This document shows, piece after piece, positions 9,838 to 62,855 of a stretch of 64,000 bases of DNA (its first letter is position 1; every line of letters begins with the position of its first letter). A program made the translations under genes and the position numbers. Source of the DNA: Squalus acanthias (Eukaryota); assembly GCA_030390025.1 (NCBI GenBank), contig CM059449.1, positions 36,270,001-36,334,000 of the forward strand, written 5' to 3'. The notes under the pieces are model-generated. The model was not told the DNA's origin. It saw only the letters and a program-made list of their open reading frames with translations, and did no database searches.

Positions 9838-10097
9838 ATTCTCAATCTTTGATGTATAACTACACACTGAACCATGGCATTTCTCATCTTCCAGACTATA
9901 GTATAATGGAGGTTGTGGATGGCTGTGAGAGAGACTTTTATGATAGCAGTATGCACATAACGGTTCCAAGGAAGCAGTGGATGGTAAATTCCTATGACTC
10001 CAGTTACTGTGAGGAACTCACAATTACTGTAGCCAGTTTCCACGGAATCAGAAAGGGCAAGTTTCCAGAACGTTGCAGCAGATAAACCTCAGTTCAC
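9838..10097 (+). pseudogene. Orphan MHC class I-like alpha1 exon, frameshifted
   Basis: TAG acceptor 9835-37 and GTAAGT donor 10098; translates DSQSLMYNYTLNHGISHLPDYSIMEVVDGCERDFYDS..TVPRKQWM..Y. Colinear with 18395-18655 but 260 nt long (1-nt deletion near 10065); conserved YW changed to YC. Confidence 0.88.
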
Positions 10098-11384
10098 GTA
10101 AGTTGATTGGTAAAACAATCTCCCTGGATCCACCTGGTGAAACGCACTGCCCGCAATCCCACTTGAATTCTATTATTTACTGTTGCCTATTCATTCAACT
10201 GCACCAGAGAACTATGAAAGCAGGTTTCTGTAAATACATTAGCAATGTTCCAGAACGAGTAAGGGGCAAAATACAGTAGCCTAGTGACGATAGTACTGGA
10301 CGAGTATCGCAAAGGTGTTGAGGCCAAATTCCAATATGGGAAGTTGTAAAATTGAAATCAGTAAGACTGATAATTTGTGGGCTATCACCAAGAAAAATGA
10401 CCGCGGAAGCTGGCAGATTATCATAAAACCGCACTGTTTCACTAATGTCTTACAGAGAAGGAGACCTGACAGTCTTTATCTGGTCTGGCCTACAAGTGAT
10501 TCTATCCCACCCAACATAGGTGGCTCTTAATGCAGTCAAGGCAAGAAGCGATGGACAATAAATGCTGGCTTGCCAGAATCGCTCAACTAGGAAGAACAAA
10601 TCATAACATCTAATAATACGCTTGCAGTTATATATATATTAATAGTTTACCGATTTAGTATCAGTTTCTTTGCATATTTGATGAATAATTGTAGTTTAGA
10701 GACAGTTAATAATCATTTAATGAATGACACTTGTGCCTTGATACTTCTCCGTGTCAGTCTCAAGCCTAATCAAAAGCTAATAGATCTAATCTACAGTGTC
10801 TTCACTCTTAGTTTTTTTCATCTGTAGACATTCTCAGTTATAATAACCACTGAAATCGGAAATCACATCTCAGTTCAACTTTGGGCGGGGAAGCGAACAC
10901 ACTACACAGAAGTCTGCCCAATCTCCCCTCCATATAAAGGAATGAATGGACAATCAGAGAGCTCCATTTGGGGAAAGCCCTCTACTCTACCGGAGGTTTT
11001 CATGTATTCAAAGCAACAGACAATTCAACAGCTCCCAGGTGCAGAGACAGGAACATCTGGCCCACATTCAGCGAATGTGAGTGAAAGAATCCATTAGGGG
11101 TTCCGGATGTCACTTCTTTGCTGCATCTATAGGACTGATACTGAGGGGTTGAATTAGATTTCCATTAGATGTTGCTTCATACACAAATATAACAAAGCTT
11201 CATTTAGGCGGAACATAAAGAGCGGATTGGCTAAGTTTTGTAGTGAAGCCTTGAGAAATTAAAGTTTTGTCAGGTAAGCACTGTGACACACCTCTGGGAC
11301 ACCATCAGATATAATCTGAGATGATCGAAAATGTACATAATCAATAGCACAGCGATAGTCATAACCTGAACAATTATGGAACAT

Positions 11385-11800
11385 AACAGCATAGGAGGAG
11401 GCCTTTCGGCCAATATAGCCTGTGCCGGCTCTTTGAAAGAGCTATTGAATTAGTCCCACTCCCCTGCTTTTTCTCCAAAGCCTGCAATTACCTTCCCTGC
11501 ATGTATTTATACATTTCCCTTTTGAAAGTTATAATTGAATCTGCTTCCACCACCCTTTCATGCAGTGCATTCCAGATCACAACAACTCACTGCGTAAAAT
11601 AAATTCCTCATCTCACCTGCGGTTCTTTTGCCAACTACCATAAATCTGAGTCCTTTGGTTCCATGACCATTCTTTCAGTGGAAACAGTTGCTCCTTATTT
11701 ACTCTGTCAAATCCCTTCATGATTTTGATCAAGTCTATTACAGCTTAACCATCTCTACTCGAAGGAGAACAATCCCAGCTTCTGTAGTCTCCCCACAGAA
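11385..11800 (-). mobile_element. CR1 3' fragment
   Basis: Reverse complement of the CR1 C-terminus and 3' UTR, similar to 20865-21210. Confidence 0.85.
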
Positions 11801-12249
11801 TCACTGTCATAATATTCTGGGTCACTGCTGCTATAGATAGGGGCAAACACATTAAATATCAAAAAGTTGATGAGCAGGATGGAATATCAGACGAAGCCTT
11901 AGTGTAGAAATCTGTGTTCATAATTATCTACCTCCTTCTGACATGTATTGCTTCCAGATGATGAATTACAGGAAGGAGAACATGTGGGGGTGATTTTAAC
12001 CTCACCCGGCGGGAACGAGTTCGGGTCAGACGCCTGTGTCCCAGTCGCCAGATGTGAATTCAGTATAAGAATTTGAATAAAACACATTTGACTTGATTAT
12101 CAAACGCTAGAAGTCTACAGGTTGCAATATATAATTTACTCATTTTTGGATATCCCACATAATACCAGTTAAATTAAATGTTTTGTAGTCACTTCACCAT
12201 CGCCTGTTTTGCGCTGGGCCCGAGACCAATTTCTCCCTGGAGAATATAA

Positions 12250-12555
12250 TATAAAATAGTCAGCATGGATTTGTAAAAGGAAGTCCATGTTTAAGCAAAC
12301 TTATTGAATAGGTTGAAGAATTAATGGAAGGAATACACAAGGGCAATGTGTTCAAAAGGCCTTCCATAAGGTGCTCGATAAGCGGCCTGTGGAGTCAGAG
12401 GTCAGGTATCAGAATGCATTGAAAGATGGTTAGAATATAGAACATGGGTGATAAGCGATGTTTCCCAGACTGTCAGCAAGTGGGAAGTGCTGTCCCGCAG
12501 GGATCTGAGTTGGGACCACTGTTGTCCACCATAAACATCAATGATATCGACCAGC
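12250..12555 (+). mobile_element. Highly decayed CR1 RT fragment
   Basis: QHGFVKGSPCL, AFHKV, VPQGSELGPLL...INDID remnants. Confidence 0.75.
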
Positions 12556-13431
12556 AATGTGTACCTGGGATCTGTCAGCCCATAACACGGAGGCTAATTC
12601 TAATCCCACATCCCACCAGGTCGCAGCCTTGGATGAAATAACAACCTCAACACAGAGCAGAGGGACACATCTACTCTTTGTTGGAGACGGAAAATTCCAA
12701 CAAAGCAACAATTTGTAATTGCCCACCTTGAAGGAATAATGTGCATATTCACCACAAAATGTTGCAACTTGTTTTATTAACCACCCCTGAAGGGTAGAGT
12801 TCCTTTCCAAAACCGTGATAGTGCAACCAAGAAACCAGTGATTCTGATGTCACTGTTGACCTTGCCTGGCATTGCACACAAGGTGATGACCAAGGGGCAG
12901 ATTTCCATCCCTACCGCCTGGATTTTCAGCCTCGCCTGGGCAGAGCACAGAGTAAAACCAGCTGGAGCGGTTCCCACAACATTTGCAGAACCCGCCTGAT
13001 TTCCCTTCTATTGAACATTTAGCACCGAGTGTATTATTCCAGTGAGGTGGGTTCGAGGCTTGTGGGAAACTGGAGCAAGGCGCCCAGACATCATTCCTCT
13101 CCATCTATCTGTAATTTTTGCCTTCTCTCCTTACTGATAGAAACCTTTGGTTTTATGTAACTCATAGTTACATACGAAGATTTACGGTAATTTAGGAAGT
13201 GGTTAATTGGGGTGGTTGGAGCATTGGGTGTTTTTCCTAGAATAATTCATTCCCATTTGAAAGTCACTACTTTCGGTCCTTATTTTTACTCAGTACTTTG
13301 ACTGTATATTTTACAGATTGGTTTTACAGCGCATAAGCATAATATAACGTCAGTTCAAGTGTAAAGTAAGCTGGAATTGTTTTTAAAAAGCATTAGACCA
13401 CACGCCGCTGCTGTAATGACAGCCGCAGTTT

Positions 13432-13615
13432 GGGGCAATTTTAACCTAAGTGGCTGGGCGGGATCCCAAGGGCGGGTGGAACGCTGATTTCCCATTCCCG
13501 CGCAATATTACTCTCCACTGATTTCAATGGAGAGTAAATTGGGCGCGGTGTAAAAGCAGCGTTGCCCCCGTTCCCGTTAGTTGTTCGGCCGGGCGGGTTA
13601 GGTTAAAATTGGACC
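13432..13615. mobile_element. Palindromic MITE-like element
   Basis: Terminal inverted repeats GGGGCAATTTTAACCTAA / TTAGGTTAAAATTGGACC; central hairpin TACTCTCCACTGATTTCAATGGAGAGTA. Confidence 0.75.
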
Positions 13616-13819
13616 ACGGGGTCAGAAAGGTTTTAATTGTCGTGATATGAACTTCAGTGATACACTGTATTGAGCTTCAGGTAGCTGAATACTTTATGAC
13701 TTGACTCTCTGCGGCAACGAGGGCATTTCCCGCTAGATTCAGGCAATATATTCATTGTTATCAATTATACAACATAACCACCGGAGCGCTATGTTAAAAA
13801 TATTTCTAACCGCCCGCCG

Positions 13820-13935
13820 TGTGTTGTCCATGGCCACATGGCGCAGGCCTTGGACTGTGAGTCAGTTTCGGTGCTGCTCACGGTTCAGGGACAGCCCTGA
13901 ACAATCAGTGACGGATCTTTACTGCGATTGGATGG
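13820..13935 (+). promoter_or_regulatory. Candidate MHC class I promoter (ISRE-like, X1/X2-like, Y box)
   Basis: AGTTTCGGTGCT 13864-75, TGACG 13909-13 and inverted CCAAT (ATTGG) 13927-31, in class I promoter order; RFX-like GTTGTCCATGGCCAC at ~13823; CpG-rich context upstream of a leader-like exon. Confidence 0.5.
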
Positions 13936-14029
13936 TGAGCTCCCGCACTGCCCACTTGTGAGTGAAGCTGGGCTCGGATTCATTCAAGGCGCTCAATCTT
14001 GTTCTGTCACTGGGAGAGACGGCGGGCGG

Positions 14030-14099
14030 ACGGACGGTGGGGACGGCAAGTTTCTGTCACTTGTACTGAGTTTCTCCCGCCTACAAGCGGCCCTGTCTG
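14030..14099 (+). pseudogene. Candidate MHC class I leader (signal peptide) exon lacking ATG
   Basis: Reads (T)DGGDGKFLSLVLSFSRLQAALS plus G, then GTGAGT. The phase-1 donor joins in frame to alpha1 (E-SHSL). Only ACG is present at the expected start. Confidence 0.5.
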
Positions 14100-14879
14100 G
14101 TGAGTAGCCGGTTCCCGCTGCATCATTGATTGTCTACAGGCTCACCCTCTGATCTTAGACTGTAACCGGCAGGCCTGTCGGTCACATCAGGTGTTTCACA
14201 CAGGGAAACTAGACAGTGTGTGCGGAAGTGAAGCGATGAAGCGGGATTGGAATCTCCATCCTGCTTCTCAGGCTCGCTTCTCCCTTTGCTTGGATTAGAT
14301 GATGTCCATTACTGTCCGGACAGCCTGACATTACAGCTCAGTTACTGTGACAGCTTGTATGTTCTCTCTGATAAGCAGGAGGGAGACGGACAGTGTGTTC
14401 CCGCTAAGCGGCTTGCGGGTACGGAAGTGTCAGTATAACTGCGAGCCCAGTCCCGACCTGACCCCCTGAGTGACCCAGAGCCCAGCGGCGAGACTCCTGC
14501 AGGAAAGCGGCTCAGTCGGTTCGGGTTCACACCTGTTTCAGTTTAACTCCAGCCGGCGGGAAGCTGCATTTTAAAAGCTTCATTCTACCTCCTGGGAACT
14601 TGGAAAACCTTTAGACCTCCCAATAAACCGGACAAATCATTAAAAATACAGAGGGAGGGGTTCACTTTTATCAAAGGGGGAAACGGGTTCCAGCGACCCG
14701 GGAACCTCTTTTACACTTTCCGACTCGCTTTAGAATGAAGCCTTGAGGCGATCCGTGCAGGTTCGGGTGAAGATTGAGCTCCCAGAGTTAACCTCTCTGT
14801 CTCTTTCACACTGACCTGTTGCATGTTTGCAACATTAGCTGTTTGTAGCGGATTCCCACCATGTGCGGTTCCATTCGGG

Positions 14880-15060
14880 CTCATGTTGACTCTGTGCGAT
14901 GGTGTAAAGAGGGCGAGAGCGAGTCGGACGCCCGTTTTCCATCTTTCTCTCCGTTTCCCCCTTCTATTGAGTTCAATGGCAGTAAAAATCTGGAGAGCTG
15001 TAAAAGGAGCTGGCGACTGGCTATCGCCCGTTTTACTATCGCACAAAGTCAAGATCGAGA
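14880..15060. mobile_element. Palindromic MITE-like element
   Basis: Inverted ends TTGACTCTGTGCGATGGTGTAAA / TTTTACTATCGCACAAAGTCAA; core CTATTGAGTTCAATGG. Confidence 0.7.
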
Positions 15061-15164
15061 CCACTGACTGTTGGAATTGATCGGCGCCTGCTGCTCACAG
15101 CCTGGAGCTGTTCGGGGTGAACATCAGAGGCAGCTTTCGGCACCTGTTACAGCTCGCTGTGGAA

Positions 15165-15495
15165 GAAAGAGAGAAAGAAAGACTTGCATTTCTACAGCGC
15201 CTTTCACCACCTCAGGACATCGGGTGGAAGCCGATTTAACAGAAACTTTGAAAATGGAATTGGACAAATACTTAAAGGGAAAACAAAAGTACATGGCTAT
15301 GGAGAAAGAACAGGTGAGTGGGAATCATTGGCTTGTTCTACCAAATCGCCGGCACAGGCACAATGGGCCGAATGTGTTCCTTCTGTCCTGTATCATTCCA
15401 TGATTGGATGGAGTTAAAATACAGATCAGCCATGACCTAATTGAATGACAGTAAAAGGCTCGAGGGGATGAATGGCCTCCTCCTGTTCCTAAATC
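15165..15495. mobile_element. SINE/L2 tail (-) followed by two CR1 3' tails (+)
   Basis: GAAAGACTTGCATTT...GCGCCTTTCAC tail, then GAATTGGACAAATACTTAAAG...GGGCCGAATG and GAATGGCCTCCTCCTGTTCCT CR1 ends. Confidence 0.7.
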
Positions 15496-16439
15496 AATGT
15501 TGGTGATATTGGAGGTGAAATGCTTACCATATTGGTGTAACATTCCTATGCCTGTTATTTTAATGGTGCAGCGTGCTTAAAACAAGTGGGATATCACCTG
15601 TGTTACAGCAATGGACGATAATGTGTCTCACTAATATTGCCAACAGTAATTTTAGGCAGAACATGTACAGCGGTACAGCGAGAAATAAGAGTCAATCAAC
15701 AAGTGTATTGGTAGCTTGGTCTTAAATTCCTCTTTTCACTATTTTAGCAGATCCTCAATCTGTTCACAGCAGATAGATTTACACCGCCACTGAAAGGGAG
15801 GAGTGTTGAATTTTCAGATTGTGTAGCTTGTAAACTTTCTATCACCCAGCAGAAACATTGAAAGTGACCAGCCTGTGAGTGGCCTTTCATTGACCTTAAC
15901 AAGGCGAGGCTATATTTGCCAGTGAGGTTTGCACCTGTTCTGATAAGGTACAAACACAGGATTGGAGATTGCTGCTGCTTTTAACAGCCAGCTCTACAAT
16001 CGCTACCGATCAGGTTCAGTGGGAAATATTCTCGCCGGTGCTTTCAATTTGTGTCCCAGTCTCCCTCCAGTTTCAAGTCTTTGCCATTGACCAGTGTGTT
16101 ACTTTCTAATCCAATTCTGCCCGCAGTTCCTAATGCTGGGAATAGAGCCAGAGATTCCCTCCCCAGTGACGGGAGGTGATTTCTTTCCCATTGGATAGAA
16201 TGAGTTTCACTGAACGAGATAAGCAGAATAATGTGGGCGGGGTTCGGACATCTACAAAACCTTCCCGTCTCGTTGTGCAGGGTTTTAACTGAGTGACTCC
16301 CTGAAACATGTTTCTCTTTGCTTTACTGAGCCTTTACTTTTTTCTAAGGATGATTCCTGGTAAGTCAAATGACAGGACTTGAGCGGCTATATTCATTATT
16401 GCACGACTAGACCGCCATCGTGAACAACGTATTTGACCT

Positions 16440-16710
16440 GGGTTTAGTCGGTGATACACCGGCTGCCCCCGTGTTTAGTCCGGGATACACCGACTGCCCC
16501 CTGTTTCGTCCGGTTTCCACTGCCTGTTCCGTGTTTAGTCCGGGTTACACTGACTGCCCCGTGTTTCGTCCGGGATACGATGACTGCCCCGATGTTTAGT
16601 CCGGGTTACACCGAATGCCTCTTGTTTAGTCCGGGTTACACCGACTGCCCTCTTGTTTAGTCCGGGTTACACCGACTGCCCTCTTGTTTAGCCCGGGTTA
16701 CACTGACTGG
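16440..16710. repeat. 30-31-bp minisatellite, ~9 copies
   Basis: Unit GTTTAGTCCGGGTTACACCGACTGCCC(C/T)(C/G)T. Confidence 0.93.
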
Positions 16711-18394
16711 CTCGGAACTTACGGATGCCCTGGGGGAGTTCCTGTGTTGGTTGAAATGGTGTGGTGACGGTAGGGGCTCGTGTGGCGCTGGCCGCTTAAG
16801 AAAGGTGCCGGAGAGTTACTGCAGGACTGAAGTAATGTCCCTCAATTAAAGATGGGGATTTGTGCGGTGTATCAGGGCGACGTGTTGGCAACGTTGGTTG
16901 AACTCATTCCAAGAGCTTTCATCACATGACCTCCAGCCCAGTCATCCAGCCTTTTGTCCCAGCTCTAATATTATTATAATTGTGATTGTTGTGTTGTTGT
17001 TATCTTTCTCATGAGTTTCTTGCAGTAAGCAGTCCCTTATAAGGCCGGTGCACTTTTCAAGGGTGGTTAATGGAGAGCGACTTATTGAAGCAGCAGGTTG
17101 CATGAAATGGTCAGGTGTCCTCCGATTCTCTGGGCAGCGGTGGAAATGTTTGTAGAGCAAGTTAGCACCGGTATTGAGGACCTCGTCTCCTCTAATAGGT
17201 AACGATAGGCCCGTCAAATTAGACAGCTGCAATGGCGAGTGGTGGATGAGCAAGCCAAAGGCAGCAACATTGGGTATAAAGTGCACGGTACCCGTAGCGG
17301 CTGATGGAGATCGACAGCCTGTTTTGATCTATTACCCAATTTTCTTTTCCAATGACTTCAATCGAATAGAAATTCAGCGGGCGGGCAAAGCTGGCTGCTG
17401 ATTCGCTATCGCCCATTCCGCGCTGCCACCCAAGACAAAGTTATATTCCATTTTCCCAAGGATCTAGCTGCATTGCAGGAAGAAACGTAATGACCTCACA
17501 TGGACTGCCAAGGTCAGACTCGGCTTCACATCTCTCTTACTGTCTGCACAGCCTCGGACCGCCGGAAATTAGCCGCTGCATTACTAATCCTGTCCCCCCC
17601 ACTGCCCATGGCTCACCTCCAATCACAACAGATCCTTCAGTACATTCCACAGTGGAATTACCAGTTGCCCGTTAACAGTTCAAAATATTCAGCAGCAACT
17701 ACAAGAATTTTAAGTGGATTAAGTAGTGAAATTCAACAACATAATAGAAGAAAATGTCTCCCAAATATTCCAGGATTTTATTTGAGACCAACTGAGGATC
17801 CCTGTAATATCTGCCTCCCGAGTGATTCCAGTTTGTGGGCAGAATCAGGAACTAGCGGGAACAATGTGGGCAGAGAGGGAAATGTTGTTGAGCGCCTTGA
17901 TAAGGGTCTTTAACCCCAATTTGCATATATTCAAGCTGCCTTTTCCCCTCTTCCGCTCAGTAAATCTGAGGCCAATTTTAATGTCGATACAAGCAGCGGG
18001 CTGGGAGCAGATCACTGTGCACGCACTAGGGATGGATTCTGCACGGCTTAGTACCATAATTCAGGGTGCACTTCCTCGCTAATTCACCAAAGAATCCCCA
18101 GGTCAGACGTGGGACTAAAATCTTAAAGTTACGATTTAAAAATGAGATGAGCTGATGTAATTTATTCGAAACATCAAATTTTTCATTTATTTCGAAAATG
18201 GGAATATTCTTGTAATGGATAATATTTAATATTATGGCTCATTTTACCTTCTCTGCAATGGTTTAACACGGGAGCGATGGCAAAATAGCCAGTGATCTCG
18301 CATTTTTCTGACTAAATTATTTTTCCCAAGTTGTTTAGCAAACTGACATTTCTAATATTTGATATCCCAATGATTTTGTTTTATTATGTCCCAG

Positions 18395-18655
18395 AGTCTC
18401 ACTCACTGCTATATTACTACACCCTGAACCATGGGAATGCTGATCTGCCGGAGTATAGTGTTATGGGGCTTTTGGATGGCTGTCAGATAGACTATTTCGA
18501 CAAAAATATGAAAATAACTGTTCCAAGACAGCAATGGATGGCAGAAGCATTTGAGAAGAGTTACTGGGACGAATACACAATAACTCAAGCTGGTTTCCAC
18601 AGACTCATCAAGGGACCGGTTGATAGATGTTTGCAGCAGAACAACCAAACATCAA
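18395..18655 (+). pseudogene. Non-classical MHC class I-like gene, alpha1 exon (open frame)
   Basis: CAG acceptor and GTGAGT donor, 261 nt, phase 1-1. ESHSLLYYYTLNHGNADLPEYSVMGLLDGCQIDYFDKNMKITVPRQQWMAEAFEKSYWDEYT...LQQNNQTS contains SHSL, PRxxWM, YW and the NQT glycosylation site. Confidence 0.95.
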
Positions 18656-18692
18656 GTGAGTGTTTTCATTTGAATGAATGCAGCGAACGACA

Positions 18693-18848
18693 GGGGTCAT
18701 TTAAATTTGGAGGATAGAGTAACATGAGTGATATCGAACTGCTTATCGAATTGACTTCAATAGAAGGGAACATTAGGCGAGTTGTATAATGGGCAACTAA
18801 TTGGATATCAGCCATTTTACACAATCTCTGGAAGGTAACATTAACCCC
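18693..18848. mobile_element. Palindromic MITE-like element
   Basis: GGGGTCATTT ... ATTAACCCC ends; core ATTGACTTCAAT. Confidence 0.6.
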
Positions 18849-19199
18849 AATGAATAGTATTGGTCATACTGGGGCTGAAATTCAGTGTTGGTGGGTGTAA
18901 AATGGGCAGTCGCAGCGAGGCCGCCCTTTATACATGCTGCACGATTTTCCTTCCCATTCCTTTCACAGTAAAATTGCCCGGACTCTACAATAGGCGGCTT
19001 GTCCGCTCCCACCCGTTCAGCAACCCTGCTGAATTTGAATTTCACTTTCATAACATGATAAAATATGGTCGCCTGTGACTCAGCTGTTGTTTTACACCTC
19101 GATCGATAAAGAAAATGAGATGTGGTTTAAAACGGGCGAAATATGGGCGCCTGTGAATCAGCTGCCGTTTCACACCGTAATCGATTTTCTGAAAATCGG

Positions 19200-19710
19200 A
19201 CATGGTGTACTCTTTTGGTGCACACTATAAACAAATAAACTGTAACTAAAAATAAGCATTAATGAAAACTTAACATTTTAAATTAAAAATTTGGTTACCG
19301 GGGAGATAATGCTCTCCAGTCCCTGCGGTGCCCACCGATCGTGGAAGGCCTCGAGCGTGCCGGCGGACACCGTGGACTCCATCTCCAGGGCCACCCGGGC
19401 GTGAACGTGGCCGCGGAAGAGAGGCAGGCAGTCGGGCCGAATGACCCCCTCGACAGCCCGCTGCCTGGAACAGTTGATGGCCACTTTGACCAGGCCCAGG
19501 AGCAGTCCTACGAGGAGGTCCCCCGATCTGGCCGCTCCCCTCCGCACCGGGTGACCATATATCAGGAGCGTGAGACTGAAGTGCAGCGAAAAATCGAGGA
19601 GCAGCCCCTTCAGATAATGGAAGAGGGGCCGCAACCTCTCACATTCGATATATACATGGAACACGGACTCCTCCAGGCTCGGACATGGTGTAAAGTGGGC
19701 GGCCCATTCA
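19200..19710 (-). mobile_element. Tx1-clade non-LTR retrotransposon 3' fragment
   Basis: C..LEESVFHVYIECERLRPL...FSLHFS..LLIYGHP...DLLVGLLLGLVKVAI..SR...FRGHVHARV...GTLEAFHDRWAP matches the Tx1 ORF2 zinc-knuckle and C-terminus as recalled. Confidence 0.85.
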
Positions 19711-19769
19711 GCATTGGTCAAATTTCACCTGATGATAACAGTTAAAAATCCACCCCTCCCCACCACCAC

Positions 19770-20245
19770 CAGTGTTTATTGAATGACATTTCTATTATTA
19801 CATTTAATTAATGATATTTTTAATATTATGTTTATTTAATTGTTTTACTTATATTTTACATGCAACTAATCATATTATGTTTATTGGGCAATTTTTTTAC
19901 TCTTCAGCAAATAAGTGAAGTGGCCAATATTGGACGGATCCAATTCTACACCTCCCTCAGATTCCCTTTCAATTGGGCGAAGTTTGTAACAGGCCACTGA
20001 TTCGATAGTGTCCGCTTTGCACTATGCCCACAATTTAAAATTAAACCCCCATGCATGGTAATATTACTTTTAATGAATAATATTCGTAACAGATTTATTG
20101 AATGACATTGGAAATAACATATTTATTGAATCATATTGACAATATTGTGTTTATTGAATTATATTGTCGATATTAAATTGAAGGATTATTATTCATATGA
20201 TTGCATTTGCTCAGTGATATTGGTGAGCACATATTTGATATATAA
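19770..20245. repeat. AT-rich degenerate tandem repeat, interrupted by a MITE-like piece
   Basis: Recurrent TTTATTGAATGACATT / TTTATTGAATCATATT motifs. Confidence 0.5.
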
Positions 20246-20342
20246 GGTAGATGTGTAAGTTTGAGGCTCCAATGCCATCTTATATCCCGCAGGTGGCTTA
20301 TCAGAAAAGCATAATGCACTGCCCGCAGTTTTCTATTCATTT

Positions 20343-20527
20343 GGAGTAAATTTTATATTTGGGCAATAGTGTAAAATGAGCGATATCGAACTGACTACCC
20401 AATATACTCCCTGTCTGATATTCCCTTCCGTTGACCTCAATGGACATGAAATCAGGCGGGGTGGAAAATGGGCGGACGATCCAATATCGTCCATTTTAAA
20501 CTCTCAGCCAATGTCAAAATTACCTCC
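20343..20527. mobile_element. Palindromic MITE-like element
   Basis: GGAGTAAATTTT ... AAAATTACCTCC ends; core CCGTTGACCTCAATGG. Confidence 0.7.
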
Positions 20528-20864
20528 ATGGAGACAAGTCCATTGTAACAAGGTTGGAGGACATGGAATGTTAGCCCATGCTGTGCAAACATAACTCAGT
20601 CCCCAATTTAATGTCATACATTCTGGCATGTATTGTGACAGCATTGGCTTATATTCTGGTATGTTATTTATAGTTAAGTAACAACATTGCTAGAAAATTG
20701 TGAAGGTGAGAAGTAGAGTTGGTTCACACACGGGGGTTTTCCAGAATTATAGCCTGAAGAGATGGGCAACAGAAAACTGAGGCATTAAAGCACCACCACT
20801 GGAGCGAGGGTGCAATTGCAACATGCTGACTTTACATCAGGAACTCCCATTTCAATTGTTGACG

Positions 20865-21830
20865 TATAGAATCATAGAATAATACAGCACAGAAAGAGGC
20901 AATTCGGCCCATCGTGCCTGTGCCGGATCTTTGAAAGCTATCCGATTAGACCCGCTCCCCTGCCCTTTCCCCATAGCCCTGCAACGTTTCCCCTTCAAGT
21001 ATGTGTCCAATTCCCTTTTGAAAGTCACGATTGAATCTGCTTCCAGCACCCTCTCAGGTAATGCATTCCAGATCACAACAACCCACTACGTAAAAAAAAC
21101 CTCATATCACCTCTGTTACTTTTTCCAATTACCTTAAAGCTGTGTCCTCTGGGTAGCGACCTTTCTCCATATTCACTCAATCCAAGGCATTCATGATTTT
21201 GAACATGAATCCAGAGGAATTGATAATTGGAAAAAGTTGATAAAAATGTGACCACAGGAAGTAAGTACATAAGAACATAAGAACATAAGAAATAGGAGCA
21301 GGAGCAGGTCATTTGGCCCCTCGAGCCTGCTCTGCCATTTAATGCGATCATGGCTGATACGATTTTGGCCTCAACTCCACTTTGCTGCCCGCTCCCCATA
21401 ACCCTTGACTCCCCTGTTGCTCAAAAATCTGTCTATCTCAGCCTTGAATGTATTCAATGACTCAGTTTCCACAGCTCTCTGGGGTAAAGAATTCCAAAGC
21501 TTCCCGACCCTCTGAGAAAAGAAATTCCTCCTCATCTTCGTCTTAAATGGACAACCCCTTATTCTGACAATGTGCCCCCTCGTTCTAGATTCACTGACGA
21601 GGGAAACATCCTTTCAGCATCAACTCTGTTCAACCCCCACAGAATCTTATATGTTACAATAAGATCACCTGGCATTCTTCGAATCTCCAATGAGTATAGG
21701 CCGAACCTGCACAACCTTTCCTCATAAGACAACACTTCCATCCCAAGAATCAACCTAGTGAACCTTCTCTGAACTGCCTCCAATGGAAGTATATCCCTCC
21801 TTAAATAAGGGGACCAAAACTGTACGTAGT
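20865..21830 (-). mobile_element. Two CR1 3' fragments
   Basis: WNALPERVLEADSIVTFKRELD and VQRRFTRLI..LSYEERL...GDLI; (ATAGAATC)n and (AAGAACAT)n tail repeats. Confidence 0.92.
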
Positions 21831-22471
21831 AGGTTGTGTGGACAGGTAGTACATAACATTTCTAATATAATACAGACAGATTTATAGTTAACTAGCAACA
21901 TTTATTCAATTTGGGAAGCGGAGAAGCAGAATTTTTTGGAGCACAGCGGTTTCTCTGGGAAATGCAAAGCTAAGTCCGACAGTGCCTCCACCGGTGGGAG
22001 GCTGTCATTGCAGCATGACCAGCTTGCGGTGGCAGCTTCCTCATAAAGGTGGACGTAGGAATTTATAAAGGGAAATGTTAAAACAAATGTAATAGAAATA
22101 TGAGAACAGGAAGTATGCTTTTGTGAACAGGAATTGCACACAGATGTAAGATTTTTTAAATGTTCTACTCAATTTCCTGTGGCTTACAGAAGACATTGGT
22201 TAGGACACTGTCGGGGTCTTTCATTTAGTTCTAAGCACCTAATATAGCAAAAATATTACAGAAAACAGCTGCTTTTAATTTTGGTGCCAATTGTTCTCTT
22301 TCTGTGCTATAAATTCTATGTCCCTGTGTGATGAACCCTGTTTTAGACGCCAAACTTCATTTCTACGCTTAGTAATGGAAAGAGTGACGAGAACACAACT
22401 GAAATTCTCAGATTTAGTGTGAATAGATGCGATAATTATGCAGCTATTGATCGATTCAATTACTGCTCTAG

Positions 22472-22735
22472 GTACTTACTACATTCAAGGACTGTTTGGC
22501 TGTGAGCTGAATGATGCCAATCCTAGTGTAGGGGTTTTGAAGTTGGCTTTTGATGGAAGATACACATTTAGTTTTGATAAAGAAAAATTGGTTTGGACCG
22601 TACATGATCCAGTAGCTCAGACCCTCAAAGTGAAATAGGATAAGGAAACAAAAATGAATCTTTATTTAGAAAATGACTGTGTGGATGTATGGAGGACATA
22701 CTATTCAATTGGAAACGCATCACTAACCAGACAAG
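22472..22735 (+). pseudogene. MHC class I-like alpha2 exon with nonsense codon
   Basis: TAG acceptor and GTAAG donor, 264 nt. TYYIQGLFGCEL...AFDGRYTFSFDKEKLVW...AQTLKVK*DKETKMNLYLENDCVDVWRTY..GNASLTRQ; TAG at 22636-38 replaces conserved W147; both alpha2 cysteines present. Confidence 0.95.
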
Positions 22736-22962
22736 GTAAGTTCAGAACAACCTGGGGGTAATTTAAAGTTTGGCGATAGTGTAGAACTGGCGATATTGGA
22801 TCAGATTCTGTTATAAACCTCTCTCCATTCTCCTTTAACAGGCGGCTGATCCGATATCACCTGTTTTACATTAGTGGCAAATGTTAAAATGACTTCCTTC
22901 ATTCTATTCTGAAATCTGTGTTTTTTATTGAAGTTGAAAATAACTGTCGTTCTATCATGTAG

Positions 22963-23235
22963 TTTCCCCTGAGGTCTCAGTTATTGCCAGGGCTGCTGAT
23001 CGTTGATTTCTCCATTGCATTGTGACTGGATTTTACCTGCAGTCCCTCAGCGTGACCTGATTGAAGAATGGCGAACATGTCCCTGAGACCAAATGTACTG
23101 GGTTATTACCCAATGAAGATGGGACCTATCAACTAACGACAACCCTTGAATTTGATCCGTATGATGGGGAACAATACTCCTGTAATATTGAGCACAGCAG
23201 CTTGCCGGGAGGGGGGGGGGGGACTGTCTTCTGGG
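22963..23235 (+). pseudogene. MHC class I-like alpha3 (Ig C1) exon with two stops and a dead donor
   Basis: VSPEVSV..R*FLHCIVTGFYLQSLSVT*LKNG...LLPNEDGTYQL...YSCNIEHSSL..VFW; TGA at 23004 and 23058; donor GTAAG changed to ATAAG at 23236. Confidence 0.95.
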
Positions 23236-24354
23236 ATAAGGACATGAGCAGCAATACTGAACAATCCATCAATAATAGCAACACTCACCCATACAGAGAT
23301 AGAGAGCAGAAAGAGGTCAATTAAATGAATGACTGAAGCAAATTGCACATTACCTCCCTGCTTGACTATTCTATTGCTCTAGAAATGAACTGTATATTCT
23401 GTCTCCCGGTGATGTTTATTTGTTACTATTGGGTCTTCTGTGCTGTTGCTGATGGACAAGAACAGGAAAATTGAAATCTTCCACTCCCTGTAACTGTCTT
23501 TTCTTATCCGTCACTTTTCTATGTCTTGCTCTTTCTCTCTACTTCTTTATACATCAGACAACACGTTTATTATGTCTGTTCTTCAGGCTGTCTGTGAATG
23601 TTCTTCATTCTTGCTCTCCCTTTTAGTCCATTTCTGTTATCTACTGACTCTTCCATAATCTGCACCTACCCCTCCTTGTGTGCTTCTCACACTCTTGCTT
23701 TCTCCAGATATCATACAATTTGCTTCTTACTGTCTATCTCCACTCCATAACAACACCCCACACACACTGCATGGTCTCAGAGTTAGATAACAAATGAAAC
23801 CCTCTTCATAGTCTATCTGGGTTCGAGAATGGATTAATCTACATTCACCACCCACTCTCAGACATCAGACGTTTTATTTGCCCGACTTGCTGTTGCTTCA
23901 ATGTTTGTTTCTGCTTTCTCATTGTTGTTCCCTTTCACTGTGGTGATGGAGCTGCTCGGTTTCTGAGCTGGAACTTTTGCTCTGTTCTGAGCTATTTCCC
24001 TCTCAGTTTCATTGTGGTTTTTGCTTCTCTTGTCGCTTTGCTCTGGTGGGGAGTGAGTGGACGGGTCTCTTTGGGATATTAGAGGAGGAGTGGGGAAGTG
24101 TTGTGAGGAAAGATCATTAAAATGTAGTGCAGTGGTGGGAGGGGTGATAAAATAATGCGGCTTGGCGGCAAGGGTGAGTGTGAGACTGGGAGCTGCAGGC
24201 AGGGAAGGTGGGTAAAACAAGAATCTGCAGCAAGAATGGAGGTTGAGACAGCTGGGGGGCAACCCCAGGAAATAAGCCTAGAAATTGCTGTTGGTGATTA
24301 ACAGGGTCAATAAATGACTCCAGGGGAACCTCCTGCTATTGGTTTAGACACAGC

Positions 24355-24493
24355 GGGGTAGATTTCCAACCTGCCGCCCGGGTGTAAAACCGGAGTTTCC
24401 TCCAATGGGAATGAAAAGCGGGCAGTTTGTGTGACAGGCGGCTGATCCACAGCGGCAGGTTCACACCAGAGCGGCACGGTGAAAATCTACCGC
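24355..24493. mobile_element. Palindromic MITE-like element
   Basis: GGGGTAGATTTCC ... GAAAATCTACCGC ends. Confidence 0.6.
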
Positions 24494-24759
24494 AAATTGT
24501 TTAATAGATAACGGTGCTGCTCACTCAGGTCTCTCCATGGAAAGGTGCCTCCCTCAGGGGAACAGGTAGGATGATCCTTATGAGCTGGAAATGTATTTCT
24601 GGTCGGTTACTGCGCTGATCCTCTGCTGAGGGCAAGTTCCAGATGTTGCGGCCCAACCTGTGCAATTCCCAGTTGTTTAGTACAATCCCTTCAATTAGAC
24701 AATCGGTTCATTAAAGTCAGTGTATAAGCTGCATATACACAGCTTCAAATAATCCTGTC

Positions 24760-25394
24760 NNNNNNNNNNNNNNNNNNNNNNNNNNNNNNNNNNNNNNNNN
24801 NNNNNNNNNNNNNNNNNNNNNNNNNNNNNNNNNNNNNNNNNNNNNNNNNNNNNNNNNNNNNNNNNNNNNNNNNNNNNNNNNNNNNNNNNNNNNNNNNNNN
24901 NNNNNNNNNNNNNNNNNNNNNNNNNNNNNNNNNNNNNNNNNNNNNNNNNNNNNNNNNNNNNNNNNNNNNNNNNNNNNNNNNNNNNNNNNNNNNNNNNNNN
25001 NNNNNNNNNNNNNNNNNNNNNNNNNNNNNNNNNNNNNNNNNNNNNNNNNNNNNNNNNNNNNNNNNNNNNNNNNNNNNNNNNNNNNNNNNNNNNNNNNNNN
25101 NNNNNNNNNNNNNNNNNNNNNNNNNNNNNNNNNNNNNCTCTCTGTGGCTCTGTCTCTCTCTGTCTCTATCTCTGTCTCTCTCTCTGGCTCTNNNNNNNNN
25201 NNNNNNNNNNNNNNNNNNNNNNNNNNNNNNNNNNNNNNNNNNNNNNNNNNNNNNNNNNNNNNNNNNNNNNNNNNNNNNNNNNNNNNNNNNNNNNNNNNNN
25301 NNNNNNNNNNNNNNNNNNNNNNNNNNNNNNNNNNNNNNNNNNNNNNNNNNNNNNNNNNNNNNNNNNNNNNNNNNNNNNNNNNNNNNNNNNNNNN
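24760..25394. other. Two assembly gaps flanking a (TC)-rich microsatellite (25138-25191)
   Basis: N runs 24760-25137 and 25192-25394. Confidence 1.
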
Positions 25395-25867: not shown

Positions 25868-25981
25868 GTAAGGCGAGGGAATAATGATGCAGTCTTATTT
25901 GTAAAAGTATGACACAGCGGCTTTGCAGAAAATCTTTTGGCCTGCCCCAGGTTTATACTTGAATTTTAAATATCTGTTATA

Positions 25982-49036: not shown

Positions 49037-49106
49037 CAGGGACACCAACCATTGCCAAAATAGGATAGTAAATTGCCGATATTTGAACAATTATAGGCCG
49101 CCCCAT
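49037..49106 (-). CDS. GPR139-like: GPR139-like GPCR, exon 1
   Basis: ATG at 49106 gives MGRPIIVQISAIYYPILAMVGVP plus G, then GTAAGT. The phase-1 join to exon 2 gives ...YYPILAMVGVPANLMTIVILS (327 aa total). Too short for the ORF track. Confidence 0.92.
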
Positions 49107-56738: not shown

Positions 56739-58650
56739 GGCGAAGATTTTCACCTTGTCGCTGGAGCCTGAAATCGATGTTGCAGATTGGCCACCGGTGC
56801 TAGAAATTCGTCTTATTCTCATTCCCATTTTAACCACAGGGTTAGCAGCAGAGTACTACACTGGCCTCGCTCCCTTCAGTTACAGAGGGAGAAGTGGCCT
56901 CGGGATTTGCTCCGGACAACTGTGTTGGCGATGCTGCTGGTGAAATGTGAGTGTGTGGACAGGATCGGGCGCGGCTGTGTTTCCAGTAATTGAACAGTGT
57001 TTGCAGTCACTGTTTCTGCTCACAGATGGAGACTGTCTACCTGAGGCCAATGTCGGAGTCAATTGTACTAATTAGGAAGGTATAAATATTAACAAAACAA
57101 AATTTTAAATCCCTGGCGTGCCATTATTCAGTGCGGCCGTTACGTAATGTCTAAAACGCCAGTTTGTGCAAATGCAGATGAGATTTGACAATGTTCCTTC
57201 AAAGTTAAACAAGTTAGTAATATTTGAATTAAGTGACTGAAACATAAGTCGGGGTGAAATGTTTATGCAAATTGAGTTGTTTCAGTAGTAAAGCAATTGC
57301 ACTTAGATGAATACATGGAAATTCATATATCCAAATTTGCCGACTACACAAAATAGGTGGAATTGTAGGCAGTGTAGATGGAAGCATAACATTGCAAAGG
57401 GATATTGACAGATTAAGTGAATGGGCAAAACTGTGGCAAATTGATTTCAATGTAGGCAAATGTGAGGTCATTCACTTTGGACCTAAAAAGGATAGAACAG
57501 GATACTTTCTAAATGGTGAATTCTACAAACAGTGGAGGTCCAAAGAGACTTGGGGGACCATGTACATAGATGATTAAAATGTCATCAACAGGTACAAAAA
57601 ATATTCAAAAAGGCTAATGGGATGCTGGTCTTTATATATAGAGTTCTAGAATACAAGAGGGTTGAACTTATGCTGCAGCTGTACAAAACCCTGGTTAGAC
57701 CGCACTTGGAGTACTGTGAACAGTTCTGGGCACCACATCTTAGGAACCATTTATTGGCCATGGAGGGAGTGCAGCGTAAGTTTACCAGAATTATATCCGG
57801 ACTTCAAGGGTTAAGTTACAAGGAGAGATTGCACAAATTAGGGTTGTATTCCCTAGAATTTAGAAGGTTAAGAGGTGATCTGATCGAAATTTTCATGATA
57901 TTAAGGGATACAGAAAGGGTAGACAGAGAGAAACTATTTCCACTGGATGGGAATTCTAGGCCTAGGGGGCATAGTCTAAAAATTAGAGACAGACCTTTTA
58001 GGAGTGAAATTAGCAAATACTTCTACACACAAAGGGTGCTGGAAGTTTGGAACACTCTGCCGCAAACGGCAATTGATGCTAGAACAATTGTTAATAGTAA
58101 ATCGTAGATTAATAGCTTTCTGTTAACCAAAGGTATTAAGGGCTATGGTGCAAAGGTGCGTATATTGAGTTAGGTCGCAGATCAGCCAGGGTCTCATTTA
58201 ATGGCGGAGCAGGCTTAATCCTCTTCCTATGTTCATATGTTCCTCTGATTAACGATGATTATTTCAGCGTGTTCTTGGATCCAAAGCAATTCTCGCCTTT
58301 GACCCTCTCAGGTTCTGGTTAAACACCTTTGAAATCTAGGGAGTGAAATCCAAATGTTAGACAATCCCGAGATGATGGTGCAGAGCACAGTACAGAGAAT
58401 GAAGTGACTTGTTCATTCTCTTTACATGGTCCTTCCCCTTCAATGTAGCTGAGTGGCAGTTCGTTTAGTGCACAGGAGCAGCGGGACTAAAGAGTGGTCG
58501 ATTCTCACTGCTTTCGCCCGGCGTTAACGGGGCGGTAATGGCTTCCAAATGGGGTCGGTAGCCTTATCTTCCCGGTAACGTTGTGCAGGTTCCAATCAGT
58601 TCCACAGGCGATGGAACTGGAGAGATTTGCTTGCACTCCGGACTGCCGGG

Positions 58651-58935
58651 CTGCCAAGTCACTATCGCCCGATTTGCTGCCAAGTCGCAATCGCCATTTT
58701 GCTGCCATGTCACTATCGCCCGATTTGCTGGCAAGTAGCTCTCTCCCATTTTGCTGCCAAGTCGCTTTCTCCCATTTCGCTGCTAAGTTGATCTCTCCCA
58801 TTTTGCTGGCAAGTAGCTCTCTCCCATTTTGCTGCCAAGTCGCTTTCTCCCATTTCGCTGCTAAGTTGATCTCTCCCATTTTGCTGGCAAGTCGCTCTCT
58901 CCCATTTTGCTGCCAAGTCATTATCACCCGATTTG
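58651..58935. repeat. 26-bp minisatellite (~11 copies) with 78-bp higher-order unit
   Basis: Unit CTGCCAAGTCGCTCTCTCCCATTTTG; a three-unit block is repeated nearly exactly. Confidence 0.92.
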
Positions 58936-61900
58936 AACTACCGCCCAAGACAATTTTACACCCCAATGGGTGTCATTTTAATTATTGGTGTTAATGTAAA
59001 ACGGGCGATATTGAATTGGGTATCTGTTATTCACCTCTTCCGATTTTTCCATGAAGTCAATGGGAAAGAAAATTGGGGGAGGTGTGCAACGGGCGGCTGA
59101 TCAGATATCGCCCGTTTTACCCTATCTCCAAATCTAAAAATGACTCCCAATGACTCTCCAACCTGTCTTGCCCCTATGAAGGTGCCATGATCGCAGTAGA
59201 CACGGGCAATATTTGCCCTAATGGGGCATTATTTTTAACACCTGGGAGTTCTAGTTCGCTTTGTGCTCTTCTGATTACATTTCTACCCTTTACCTTAATG
59301 TCACTCTGAAGCCATTTACATCACAACCTTAGATTTGGTGTGAAGGGATATTCTGGAGGAGGCAGTCTCCCTCCACTTCACCTGGTAGTCAGGTGGGGTC
59401 CTGGATCTGGATTTACACTTAAACATCTGGCGTTAAGCCAAACCAGCCCTTAGGGATCCTCAGGCTGCAGTGTGAATGTGGCCTATGGGAAGAGAAAGTA
59501 CTCGCTCCAATGCAGAATCAGGAACGCTATTAAACTTGCATTGTCACTGAGACAATTAGTGTGGATCTGTGTCCTGTCAGCCCACTTTCATTCACTTCTA
59601 GGAATTAAGGTTCGCCTTTAAAACGTTTCAGAGGAATTGACCCTTTCCATGAAGTGTGATGCTGACCTCCATTCTTAAATCTGGGTTCTTTTGATTGGCA
59701 GGTTGTGGGGTGCTGCATAAGGAAGTATTTCAAGTATCCACCTTGTTCCGAAAAGACACACTTTCAGAGAGAACACTTGATGATGTTGGTAATAAAGGTT
59801 TTTTAGCAAGTATGCTTCCCTCTGAACATATCAATCAAACATAAAATCATGTTGATGCTGATGGTGTTACCATGGGGAAAGTTTTCATGTGTGGGCCACC
59901 TGTTAGAAAACGTAAAGAGGTGACATTGGGCTCAGGGGGTAGCGCCAAATGGCGATAGCGAATCACCAGCCAGTTTCACAACAACCCCATGGGCTTTTCT
60001 ATTGACTTCAATGAAAGGGCGGCCGATTCACAAGTGGATATTTTGTGTTATCGTCGAAGACCAATTTCGCCCCCTAAATTGATTAACAAAGAACTGGATT
60101 TCAATTTCACTACACTTAGGGCACGTGCATATCGAAATAAACAGAAGTTACAACATGGAAACAAATCCTTCAGCCCAACCAGTGCGTATCGGCATTTACT
60201 CTCCACACAAGTAAATATTACTAATCACATTTACCCACCCTGTTCTCATATCCCTTCAACCCCTTTTCCCTTTGTCCAACTTCTCAATCTAATCTTAAAT
60301 GTTGTGATAGTTTCTGCCTCAACTTCACTCACTGGAAATGGATTCCACAGCCTCACAACGCTCCGTGAAAAGAATCGTCTCCTACCTTCTGTTCTAAATC
60401 TCTAACATTTAACCTGGTATCTGTAACCCCTCAATTTTGACCTTCAACTATTGGAAACCGTCTGCTTCTATCTACCCTGAGCCATCCGTCCATCATTTTA
60501 AACACTTGTATTATGTCACCCGGTATAGCATTGTTCAAATAAAAAGGCGCATTTTCCAAGCCTTTCCTTATATTTGTGTTTCCTTCTATCAGGCCGCATC
60601 CTAGAGAATTCACCTTGTAGCTTCTCGAAAGCTCAAGATCCCACCTATCGCGTGAAATTCAATACTGCACACAGTGCTCTAACTCAGGGCTTATTAAGGT
60701 TTTATAGAGGCTCATAGTTACGTCTTGGCTGAAATGTTCTGTACCTTTGGGGTTAAACCTAGAATTCCATTAGTAAGTTTGCCACGATAAGATACCATTT
60801 GTTCTCAAACAATTCAATAAATGAACCATTTTAATCCCACTCCAGAGAATTGAGCATTAAAATCTAGGCTGATAGTAGTAGGGAAAATGCTAGAGTCTAC
60901 TATAAAGGATGTGATAACAGGACACTTAGAAAATATCAACGGGATGAGACAAAGTCAACATGGATTTATGAAAGGTAAATCGTGTTTGTCATACCTACTG
61001 GAGATTTTTGAGGATGTAACTGGTAGAATAGATAAGGGAGAACCAGTGGATGTGGTGTATTTGGATTTTCAGAAAACCTTTGATAAAGTCCCACATAAGA
61101 GGTTAGTGTGCAAAATTAAAGCACATGGGATTGGGGATAATACACTGGCATGGATTGGAAATTGGTTAACAGACAGGAAACAGAGAGTAGGAATAAATGG
61201 GACTTGTTCGGGGTGGCAGGCGGTGACTAGTGGGGTACCGCAGGGATCAGTGCTTGGGCCGCAGCTATTCACAATATAAATCAGTGATTTGGATGAGGAA
61301 ACCAAATGTAATATTTCCCAGTTTGCTGACGACACGAAACTTGGAGAGATTGTGAGTTGTGAGGAGGATGCAAAGAGGCTTCAAGGCGATTTAGACAAGT
61401 TGATTGAGTGGGCAAATACATGTCCGATGCAGTATAACGTAGATAAATGTGATGTTATCCACTTCGGTAGGAAAAACAGAAAGGTAGAGCATTATTTAAA
61501 TGGTGATAGATTGGGAAATGTTGATGTACAAAGGGACCTGGGTGTTCTTGTACACCAGTCACTGAAAGCAAACATGTACGTGCAGCAAGCAGTTAGGAAG
61601 TCAAATGCTATGTTGGCCTTCATTGCAAGAGGATTTGAGTACAGGAGGAAGGATGTTTTACTACAGTTATACAGGGTCTTGGTGAGACCACACCTGGAGT
61701 ACTGTGTGCAGTTTTGGTCTCCTTACGTAAGAAAGGATATACTTGCCATCGAGGGGAGCAACGAAGGTTCACCAGACTGATTCCTGGGATGGCAGGACTG
61801 TCGTATGAGGAGAGATTGGTTCGACTAGGCCTGTATTCATTAGAGTTTAGAAGAATGAGAAGGGATCTCATTTAAACGTCTTAAATTCTGACAGGGCTAG

Positions 61901-62749
61901 AAAGACTGGATGCAGGCAGGATGTTTCCCCTGGCTGGGGGGGGGGGGTCTAGAACGAGGGGTCACAGTCTCAGGATACGGGGTAGGACATTTAGGACTGA
62001 GATGAGGAGAAATTTCTTCACTCAGAGGGTGGTGAACCTGTGGAATTCTCTACCACAGAAGGCTGTGGAGGCCCAGTCACTGAATATATTTAAGAAGGAT
62101 ATAGATAGATTTCTAGACGCAAAAGGCATCGGGGGTATGGGGAGAGAGCGGGAATATGGTATTGAGATAGAGGATCAGCCATGATTATATTGAATGACGG
62201 AGCAGTCTCGATGGGCCGAATGGCCAATTCCTGCTCCTATTTTTCAATGTTTGTATGACACTCCAGTGCAGTACTGAGGGAGTGCCGAACTGTCGGAGGT
62301 GCCGTCCTTCAGATGAGATGTTAAACCGAGGCCCTATCTGCCCTCTCAGGTGGATGCAAAAGATCCCATGACACCAGCTCGAAGAAGAGCAGGGGAGATC
62401 TCTCCGGTTTCCTGGCCAATATTTATCCTTCATTCACGATCATTAAAAACAGATTATCATTATCACACCACTTTTTGCGGGAACTTGCTGTGCGCAACTT
62501 GGATGCCGCGTTTCCTACATTACAACAGTGACTACCCTGAAAACGAAAGTACTTCATTTGCTGTAAAGCACTTTGGGACGTCCTGAGGTCGTGAAAGGCG
62601 CGCGATATAAATGAAAGTTTTTCTTTTTCTTTCTTTATAACAGATATTTACAATTCAAATATAATCCTGGGGCAGGCCAAAGGATTTTCTGCAAAGCCGC
62701 TGTGTCATACTTTTACAAACAGGGGTGTAACATTATACCCTCGCCTTAC

Positions 62750-62855
62750 CTCTGTTTTTTCCTCCACATATAGATTAAAACTATAACGATAGCCAGCGAC
62801 ACCAGTACACACACGACAATCAGCCCCACATGCTTGACTTTCTCTACTTTTCCTT
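62750..62855 (-). CDS. Transmembrane exon of a second MHC class I-like gene (rest of gene expected beyond the window end; functional status unknown)
   Basis: Intact CAG and GTAAG sites; EGKVEKVKHVGLIVVCVLVSLAIVIVLIYMWRKKQR; 4 differences in 106 nt from 25762-25867. Confidence 0.8.

What the first reader, a model, noticed from the sequence alone, without database searches (positions are those of the whole stretch)
9838..62855. Non-classical MHC class I genes interspersed with an orphan GPR139-like GPCR family
Seen: three class I-like loci (orphan alpha1; full pseudogene; TM exon of an inverted paralog) bracket two GPR139-like loci (one intact, one dead). Both families show duplication and decay inside 55 kb. 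Known: rodent class Ib (H2-Mv/M10) molecules are co-expressed with V2R receptors, and olfactory receptor clusters are MHC-linked in mammals. Inference: this may be an analogous cartilaginous-fish system pairing class Ib molecules with an expanded GPR139-like receptor family (chemosensory or immune). It could also be just a duplication-prone region that collects multigene families.
Basis: partly seen in the sequence, partly recalled or inferred. Interest (0 to 1): 0.8.

Follow-up and report, generated by a model that had tools for sequence, protein, structure and literature searches.

The report
Orphan receptor array inside shark MHC
This stretch is one repeat of a large array in a shark's immune-gene region (MHC) where a non-classical class I gene and orphan receptor genes were copied together many times; they are old neighbours in sharks and rays, but likely share real estate rather than work as a dedicated pair.

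Summary
The exons are real, but they are not three independent class I loci. The window is the centre of a ~50-kb inverted duplication. Each arm carries a GPR139-like gene, a dead alpha1 exon and a class Ib gene of the known UGA lineage (PDB 9CH4; described as CD1-like). The 'TM-only' locus continues beyond the window with open alpha1-3 exons.

The array spans contig C26 at 29.7-38.6 Mb, beside C4-like genes. It holds at least 87 receptor loci and 16 UGA copies (11 open), although UGA is described as single- or low-copy. Its receptors form one clade, on the same contig as class I genes in 7 of 9 informative sharks and rays; ten GPR139-labelled genes lie between sawfish MHC-Ib clusters in a published supplement, undiscussed in that paper's text.

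Against a dedicated pairing: the family has at least 1,449 motif hits genome-wide, in clusters without class I; a dead exon co-duplicates as well as the live gene; and partners die independently. Co-expression was not testable. The scan noted this giant family before in another genome, but not its MHC linkage.

The parts
1..31670 (.). Left arm of an inverted segmental duplication (begins about 14 kb before the window, at C26:36,255,905, where it carries an intact GPR139-like gene head-to-head with the class I unit)
   Evidence: blastn blocks 83-92% identical to C26:36,326,739-36,380,538; self-match 25397-31670 vs 63235-56739
9838..10097 (+). Dead alpha1-like exon (a1'), remnant of an older tandem duplicate; 3' end out of frame, TAA at 10083-10085
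   Evidence: 53% identical to the live alpha1; 17 copies on C26; dN/dS 1.55 among 17 copies analysed, all with the same altered 3' end
14048..14099 (+). Leader-like exon A (start codon reads AAG in this copy)
   Evidence: match to leaders of P0124/P0125; GT donor
16308..16359 (+). Leader-like exon B (ATG and GT donor present)
   Evidence: match to leader of P0122
18395..18655 (+). UGA-lineage class Ib pseudogene, alpha1 exon (open)
   Evidence: 59-80% identical to 10 shark and ray proteins; resembles Gcirratum_UGA in the supplement; splice joint 18655-22472 seen in paralog contigs
22472..22735 (+). alpha2 exon, broken: TAG at 22636-22638 and a 12-nt deletion near 22665
22963..23235 (+). alpha3 exon, broken: TGA at 23004 and 23058, splice donor reads AT
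   Evidence: donor is GT in 11 of 11 open paralogs
25762..25867 (+). Transmembrane exon of the pseudogene
32072..32428 (-). Dead GPR139-like exon 2: internal deletion of about 185 codons and stops
   Evidence: tblastn, translation
45799..46712 (-). Intact GPR139-like gene, exon 2 (an alternative AG acceptor 3 nt upstream keeps the frame)
   Evidence: 77% to the best homologue; nearest solved structure human GPR139 at E 1.5e-9
49037..49106 (-). Intact GPR139-like gene, exon 1 (23 codons, GT donor)
56739..64000 (.). Right arm of the inverted duplication (continues to C26:36,380,538)
62750..62855 (-). Transmembrane exon of the next UGA gene, whose alpha1-3 exons lie beyond the window and are open

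Best explanation
The window is the centre of an inverted duplication inside a multi-megabase array on a C4-bearing contig, where UGA-lineage class Ib genes and one clade of a huge GPR139-like receptor family were copied together, likely as passengers on shared duplication units in the MHC rather than as functional partners. Shown: unit structure, copy numbers, one receptor clade, tree congruence of neighbours, independent decay. Inferred: (1) a receptor of this family settled in the class Ib region before sharks and rays split and diversified there; (2) unequal crossing-over and inversion later amplified a receptor + dead exon + UGA unit in this lineage; (3) UGA keeps a lipid-binding, CD1-like role (from a review and the UGA groove residues), while the receptors probably act as small-molecule or peptide sensors like their many relatives elsewhere.
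For: Unit repeated in inverted arms. 16 UGA alpha1 and 17 a1' copies at C26:32.7-38.4 Mb. 81 of the 129 best receptor matches on C26:29.7-38.6 Mb, 48 on 12 other contigs, 8 of which also carry class I exons. C4-like exons at C26:29.4, 29.7 and 32.4 Mb (2 of 3 tested, both best hit C4). UBA-like genes share contigs C812 and C3328 with this clade. Clade support SH-aLRT 100. Family is genome-wide: 1,449 motif hits, control 4. Receptor distances track the dead exon (r 0.72, p 0.0008, n 9) at least as well as the live alpha1 (r 0.50, p 0.010, n 8). 5 of 11 open UGA copies lack the usual neighbour, and 6 of 12 open neighbours have a broken or unlisted UGA. Other receptor clades sit just outside the array at 38.73, 38.79 and 40.08 Mb.
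Against: The clade stayed with class I genes in 7 of 9 informative species, and 12 of its 13 UGA-adjacent copies have an open exon 2 with dN/dS 0.67, which a functional tie would also give. The head-to-head orientation is kept in 12 of 13 copies. No tissue-level expression was available, so co-regulation is not excluded. The core MHC is on unplaced contigs here (BET domain and UAA-like genes on C3751), so MHC identity of C26 rests on C4, UBA linkage and other species.
Confidence: 0.72

Rival explanations
1. The MHC-resident receptor clade is co-regulated with UGA or other class Ib genes in the same immune or barrier cells, for example sensing lipids or metabolites while UGA presents them, without physical contact.
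For: Clade retained with class I genes in sharks and rays; conserved head-to-head arrangement in 12 of 13 copies; both under purifying selection.
Against: The gap between receptor and UGA leader is tens of kb; MHC synteny is generally conserved in elasmobranchs (PMC10751288 section 9), so retention needs no function; in Heptranchias the receptors on the UGA contig belong to a different subclade (P0016).
Confidence: 0.14
2. UGA acts like mouse M10/H2-Mv, escorting or modulating these receptors in chemosensory neurons.
For: Interleaving and co-duplication; the receptor family has the size and birth-and-death pattern of a chemoreceptor family.
Against: Most of the family lies in clusters with no class I hit; partners decay independently; UGA is reported to bind lipids like CD1d; these are class A receptors, whereas V2Rs are class C (recalled).
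Confidence: 0.06
3. Much of the UGA and receptor copy number is an assembly effect (both haplotypes or repeated contigs scaffolded in series).
For: Several copies are 98.8-99.6% identical over 5-8 kb, and unplaced contigs match C26 copies at 99.4-99.6%.
Against: The 11 open UGA copies fall into 5 groups that differ by 3.5-7.8% in exons; the two arms at this window differ by about 10%.
Confidence: 0.08

Closest known systems
UGA non-classical class I lineage of cartilaginous fish (query set in PMC10751288 supplement file 10; PDB 9CH4 chain A; review PMC12562908)
   Same: Homologue P0122 matches 9CH4_A at E 3.8e-141 against 7.7e-55 for the next entry; the 9CH4 sequence reads like Gcirratum_UGA; MHC-linked.
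   Different: Described as single- or low-copy; here 16 alpha1 copies on C26, 11 with open alpha1-3, at least 5 distinct groups, with two leader-like exons and a dead alpha1 passenger.
GPR139 / GPR142 class A orphan receptors
   Same: Best solved-structure hit is human GPR139; RefSeq labels most relatives 'probable GPR139'.
   Different: Only E 1.5e-9 to human GPR139; bony-vertebrate proteins with that label are about 31% identical. This is an expanded family of over a thousand loci, not a one-to-one orthologue.
Mouse H2-M10/H2-Mv class Ib with V2R vomeronasal receptors (recalled, not read)
   Same: Class Ib multigene family plus a large receptor family.
   Different: That system is defined by co-expression and association, neither shown here; V2Rs are class C.
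MHC-linked olfactory receptor clusters of mammals (recalled, not read)
   Same: A subset of a genome-wide class A receptor family resident in or beside the MHC.
   Different: Here an unrelated receptor family, inside the class Ib/C4 region and interleaved with class I genes on shared duplication units.

Membership tests
UGA class Ib lineage | Closest to named UGA sequences rather than UAA/UBA/UDA/UEA/UFA | tested here: met
   alpha1 59-80% to homologues vs 32-36% to other class I genes of this genome; homologue matches 9CH4; supplement sequences compared by eye; no class I tree was built
UGA class Ib lineage | Loss of classical peptide-anchoring residues, hydrophobic groove | tested here: met
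   in 6 homologues aligned with UAA: 84 Q/K, 143 F/L, 159 L, 167 L; Y59, K146, W147 kept (159 and 167 read from the alignment blocks because the reference has an insertion)
UGA class Ib lineage | MHC linkage | tested here: met
   C4-like exons on C26 within the array; UBA-like genes on C812 with a UGA exon
UGA class Ib lineage | Single or low copy number | tested here: not met
   16 alpha1 copies on C26, 11 open
UGA class Ib lineage | Lipid binding | not testable with these tools
   reported as personal communication in PMC12562908
GPR139 orthologue | One-to-one orthology and high identity to vertebrate GPR139 | tested here: not met
   E 1.5e-9 to human GPR139; over 1,400 motif hits; no tree including true GPR139 was built
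GPR139 orthologue | Activation by L-Trp/L-Phe | not testable with these tools
   needs a ligand assay
Cartilaginous-fish GPR139-like family | Class A 7TM, two exons, RGxCGLSKC motif after TM1 | tested here: met
M10/V2R-type pairing | Co-expression in the same sensory neurons | not testable with these tools
   only three contig sets of unknown tissue
M10/V2R-type pairing | Physical association or escort function | not tested
   no complex prediction was run; neighbourhood alone did not justify it
M10/V2R-type pairing | Matched retention of receptor and class Ib partner | tested here: not met
   5 of 11 open UGA lack the neighbour; 6 of 12 open neighbours have a broken or unlisted UGA

The most novel reading that the evidence does not exclude
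An orphan receptor clade has been a resident of the elasmobranch MHC class Ib region since before sharks and rays split because it works with the lipid-presenting UGA molecules, as a co-expressed sensor module or with UGA as escort, and this shark has expanded the whole module in step.
Probability: 0.15. Interest if true: 0.88.

Novelty: new variant of a known kind. Interest (0 to 1): 0.55.

Why it matters
Two points stand without the pairing. First, the elasmobranch MHC is used as the model of the ancestral MHC, and it appears to hold a large receptor clade that the main description does not discuss; it parallels MHC-linked olfactory clusters with an unrelated family. Second, a CD1-like lineage thought to be single- or low-copy is expanded here to at least 5 distinct and up to 11 open genes, which gives natural variants for testing lipid presentation. 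The MHC clade is also a small, well-defined entry point for finding where this very large orphan family is expressed.

Tried and rejected
Expression of the receptor: no RNA holder was listed; in three contig sets of unknown tissue the longest listed exon pieces were about 80-87% alike. This is no evidence either way. MHC markers in the own genome: MHC II beta, CutA and RPS18 family searches found nothing usable. Pfam scans of window exons failed on stop codons and were not completed. The idea that a1' is a live alternative exon was rejected: same altered 3' end in all 17 copies analysed, a stop before the donor in 16 of 17, dN/dS 1.55. A weak receptor hit at 13354-13459 (E 0.004) was not accepted as a third locus. 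A 1,194-aa open frame at C3751 is a simple repeat in an intron. No cytoplasmic exon was established. The white shark and catshark supplement sheets carry no gene names, so they could not be read for receptors. Papers not held: white shark genome paper, UEA and UDA papers. No fold or complex prediction was run.
Full report
Observation. The class I gene at 18.4-25.9 kb is a pseudogene: alpha2 has a TAG and a 12-nt deletion, alpha3 has two TGA and an AT in place of the GT donor. The receptor at 49106-45799 (-) has two exons and an open frame of 327 residues. The receptor at 32428-32072 has lost about 185 codons. Each arm runs receptor, dead alpha1, two leader-like exons, alpha1, alpha2, alpha3, TM. 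The two receptors inside the window lie in the spacer between the arms. The TM exon at 62.8 kb belongs to a gene with open alpha1-3 beyond the window.

The class I gene. Its alpha1 is 59-80% identical to 10 shark and ray proteins (10 of 16 candidates). One of them matches PDB 9CH4 chain A at E 3.8e-141, whose sequence reads like 'Gcirratum_UGA' in the supplement of PMC10751288 (compared by eye). [quoted passage not shown] Homologues lack four classical anchors (84, 143, 159, 167). In this genome there are 16 alpha1 copies on C26 at 32.7-38.4 Mb and 7 on unplaced contigs (64 matches of 74 candidates). Eleven of the 16 have open alpha1, alpha2 and alpha3 with intact splice sites; TM exons were checked for only three copies. 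dN/dS is 0.43, 0.34 and 0.28 for the three exons. The 11 fall into 5 groups 3.5-7.8% apart; copies within a group differ by 0.1-1.6% and could in part be haplotypes. Three contig sets labelled as the same species hold spliced UGA paralog sequence with GT-AG joints (alpha1-alpha2 in 2 of 3 runs, alpha2-alpha3 in 3 of 3), two of them with the 12 bases that this copy lacks; tissue is unknown.

The dead exon. a1' occurs 17 times on C26. The 17 copies analysed (16 from C26, one from C812; one C26 copy with an internal deletion was left out) share an altered 3' end, 16 have a stop before the donor, and dN/dS is 1.55. It serves as a neutral marker of the duplication unit.

The receptor family. A 17-base motif has 1,449 exact hits genome-wide against 4 for the reversed control. 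All 6 motif-picked loci that I fetched were family members, three of them decayed or partial. The motif is present in 28 of 43 array loci and 10 of 15 others, which suggests about 2,200 loci including pseudogenes and haplotype duplicates. The first 100 listed hits lie on C1-C7, C11, C16 and C17, and adds C18, C29 and C30; none of these contigs had a class I hit (both give lower bounds). Of the 129 scored best matches to the window's receptor (4,727 candidates), 81 lie at C26:29.7-38.6 Mb and 48 on 12 other contigs; raise the C26 count to at least 87. Human GPR139 is the nearest solved structure, but only at E 1.5e-9. Bony-vertebrate proteins with that label are about 31% identical (10 of 150 hits looked up).

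Is this the MHC? Thioester-protein exons lie at C26:29.4, 29.7 and 32.4 Mb; the two tested hit C4 best. UBA-like class I genes share C812 and C3328 with receptors of the array clade (UBA label by eye). A BET domain and UAA-like genes are on unplaced C3751, so the core MHC is not joined to C26 in this assembly.

Other species. All sampled array receptors form one clade (SH-aLRT 100; 48 of 86 and 51 of 91 sequences; a larger FastTree run gave 139 of 183 with support 0.73). None of the 18 loci sampled from other chromosomes that entered the trees, nor three C26 loci outside the array, fall in it. Homologues were chosen by likeness to the window's gene, so the clade itself is partly by design; its location is not. 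Judged by equal contig length, clade members share a contig with UGA or UAA-like genes in Heptranchias (0.53 Mb, accession numbers flanking UGA), Heterodontus, Stegostoma, Rhincodon, Mustelus, Pristis and Hemitrygon. The Pristis contig is chromosome 34, since LOC127585898 appears in both and the supplement. That table lists 13 'probable GPR139' genes, 10 of them between the beta2m/Ib cluster and the next Ib cluster and two among the C4 genes; only one Pristis protein was in my tree. Two species disagree: the catshark member is on a 145.0-Mb contig while the published MHC chromosome reaches 163.4 Mb, and the Chiloscyllium punctatum member is on 80.7 Mb while a UAA-like gene is on 81.3 Mb. Each rests on one protein. 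Pristiophorus, Rhinoraja, Leucoraja, Narcine, Scyliorhinus torazame, Cetorhinus, Mobula and Hypanus were uninformative.

Co-duplication. One receptor subclade (13 copies on C26 at 88% or more) lies head-to-head with an a1' exon within 7-26 kb in 12 of 13 cases, and with a UGA alpha1 beyond it in 10 of 13. Distances are correlated with both the dead exon (r 0.72, p 0.0008, n 9) and the live alpha1 (r 0.50, p 0.010, n 8). So they travel on one unit, but a dead exon does so equally well. Twelve of the 13 have an open exon 2; six of these have a broken or unlisted UGA partner, including this window's pseudogene. Five of 11 open UGA copies have no such neighbour; for three, 20 kb upstream held only a decayed receptor, for one a 10-kb stretch held none, and one was not checked. 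The window's own intact receptor belongs to a different subclade and lies outside the unit.

Mechanism. I commit to shared real estate (0.72): an old receptor clade in the class Ib region, amplified with UGA by segmental duplication. Co-regulation (0.14) and an M10-like escort role (0.06) are not excluded, because no tissue data were available.

Literature. PMC10751288: passages, section 9 and supplement parts 1, 15, 18, 19, 97 plus searches; its main text has no 'GPCR' or 'G-protein'. PMC12562908: passages. PMC12058573: term search only, no hits. Searches for a description of the linkage or of the family in sharks found none by title and abstract listing (for UGA 5, 31, 73). I recall the 2019 white shark genome paper noting extra GPR139 copies; it was not held. 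The UDA and UEA papers, which have synteny figures, were also not held, so the linkage may have been drawn before. M10/V2R and MHC-linked olfactory clusters are recalled, not read. The scan noted the giant family before in another genome and a satellite cassette at these genes in this genome.

Verdict. A real and partly undescribed arrangement built from known parts: new variant of a known kind, interest 0.55.

Noticed in passing
G000:C26:30,699,752-30,710,363 (L017-L018): A divergent class I gene near the edge of the array: alpha1 52% to UGA with the same LNHG/PEYS motifs, alpha2 only 32%, all three exons open; possibly a UGA sister lineage.
   Followed up: partly
window 14048-14099 and 16308-16359: Two different leader-like exons upstream of UGA alpha1, repeated in two other copies; database homologues use one or the other.
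   Followed up: partly
Identity of the two was not checked.
   Followed up: no
P0303-P0310 (ray proteins): Database models with two to five tandem alpha1-alpha2-alpha3 units in one class I protein in stingray, manta and sawfish; either merged tandem genes or real multi-domain class I molecules.
   Followed up: no
L077, L078 (C26:35.88, 35.58 Mb): One receptor subclade has short branches and members in seven sharks and two skates, suggesting a conserved near one-to-one receptor; both synteny exceptions belong to it.
   Followed up: partly
L161, L163, L165 (C26:32.37, 29.70, 29.41 Mb): The three C4-like thioester exons read GCAEQ, as in C4, and are interleaved with receptor genes as in sawfish chromosome 34.
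   Followed up: partly
window 53994-55342, 8393-8757, 16442-16709, 40405-40761: Minisatellites of 19, 44 and 30-31 bp and a CA-rich tract; the window also holds many decayed LINE reverse-transcriptase fragments.
   Followed up: no
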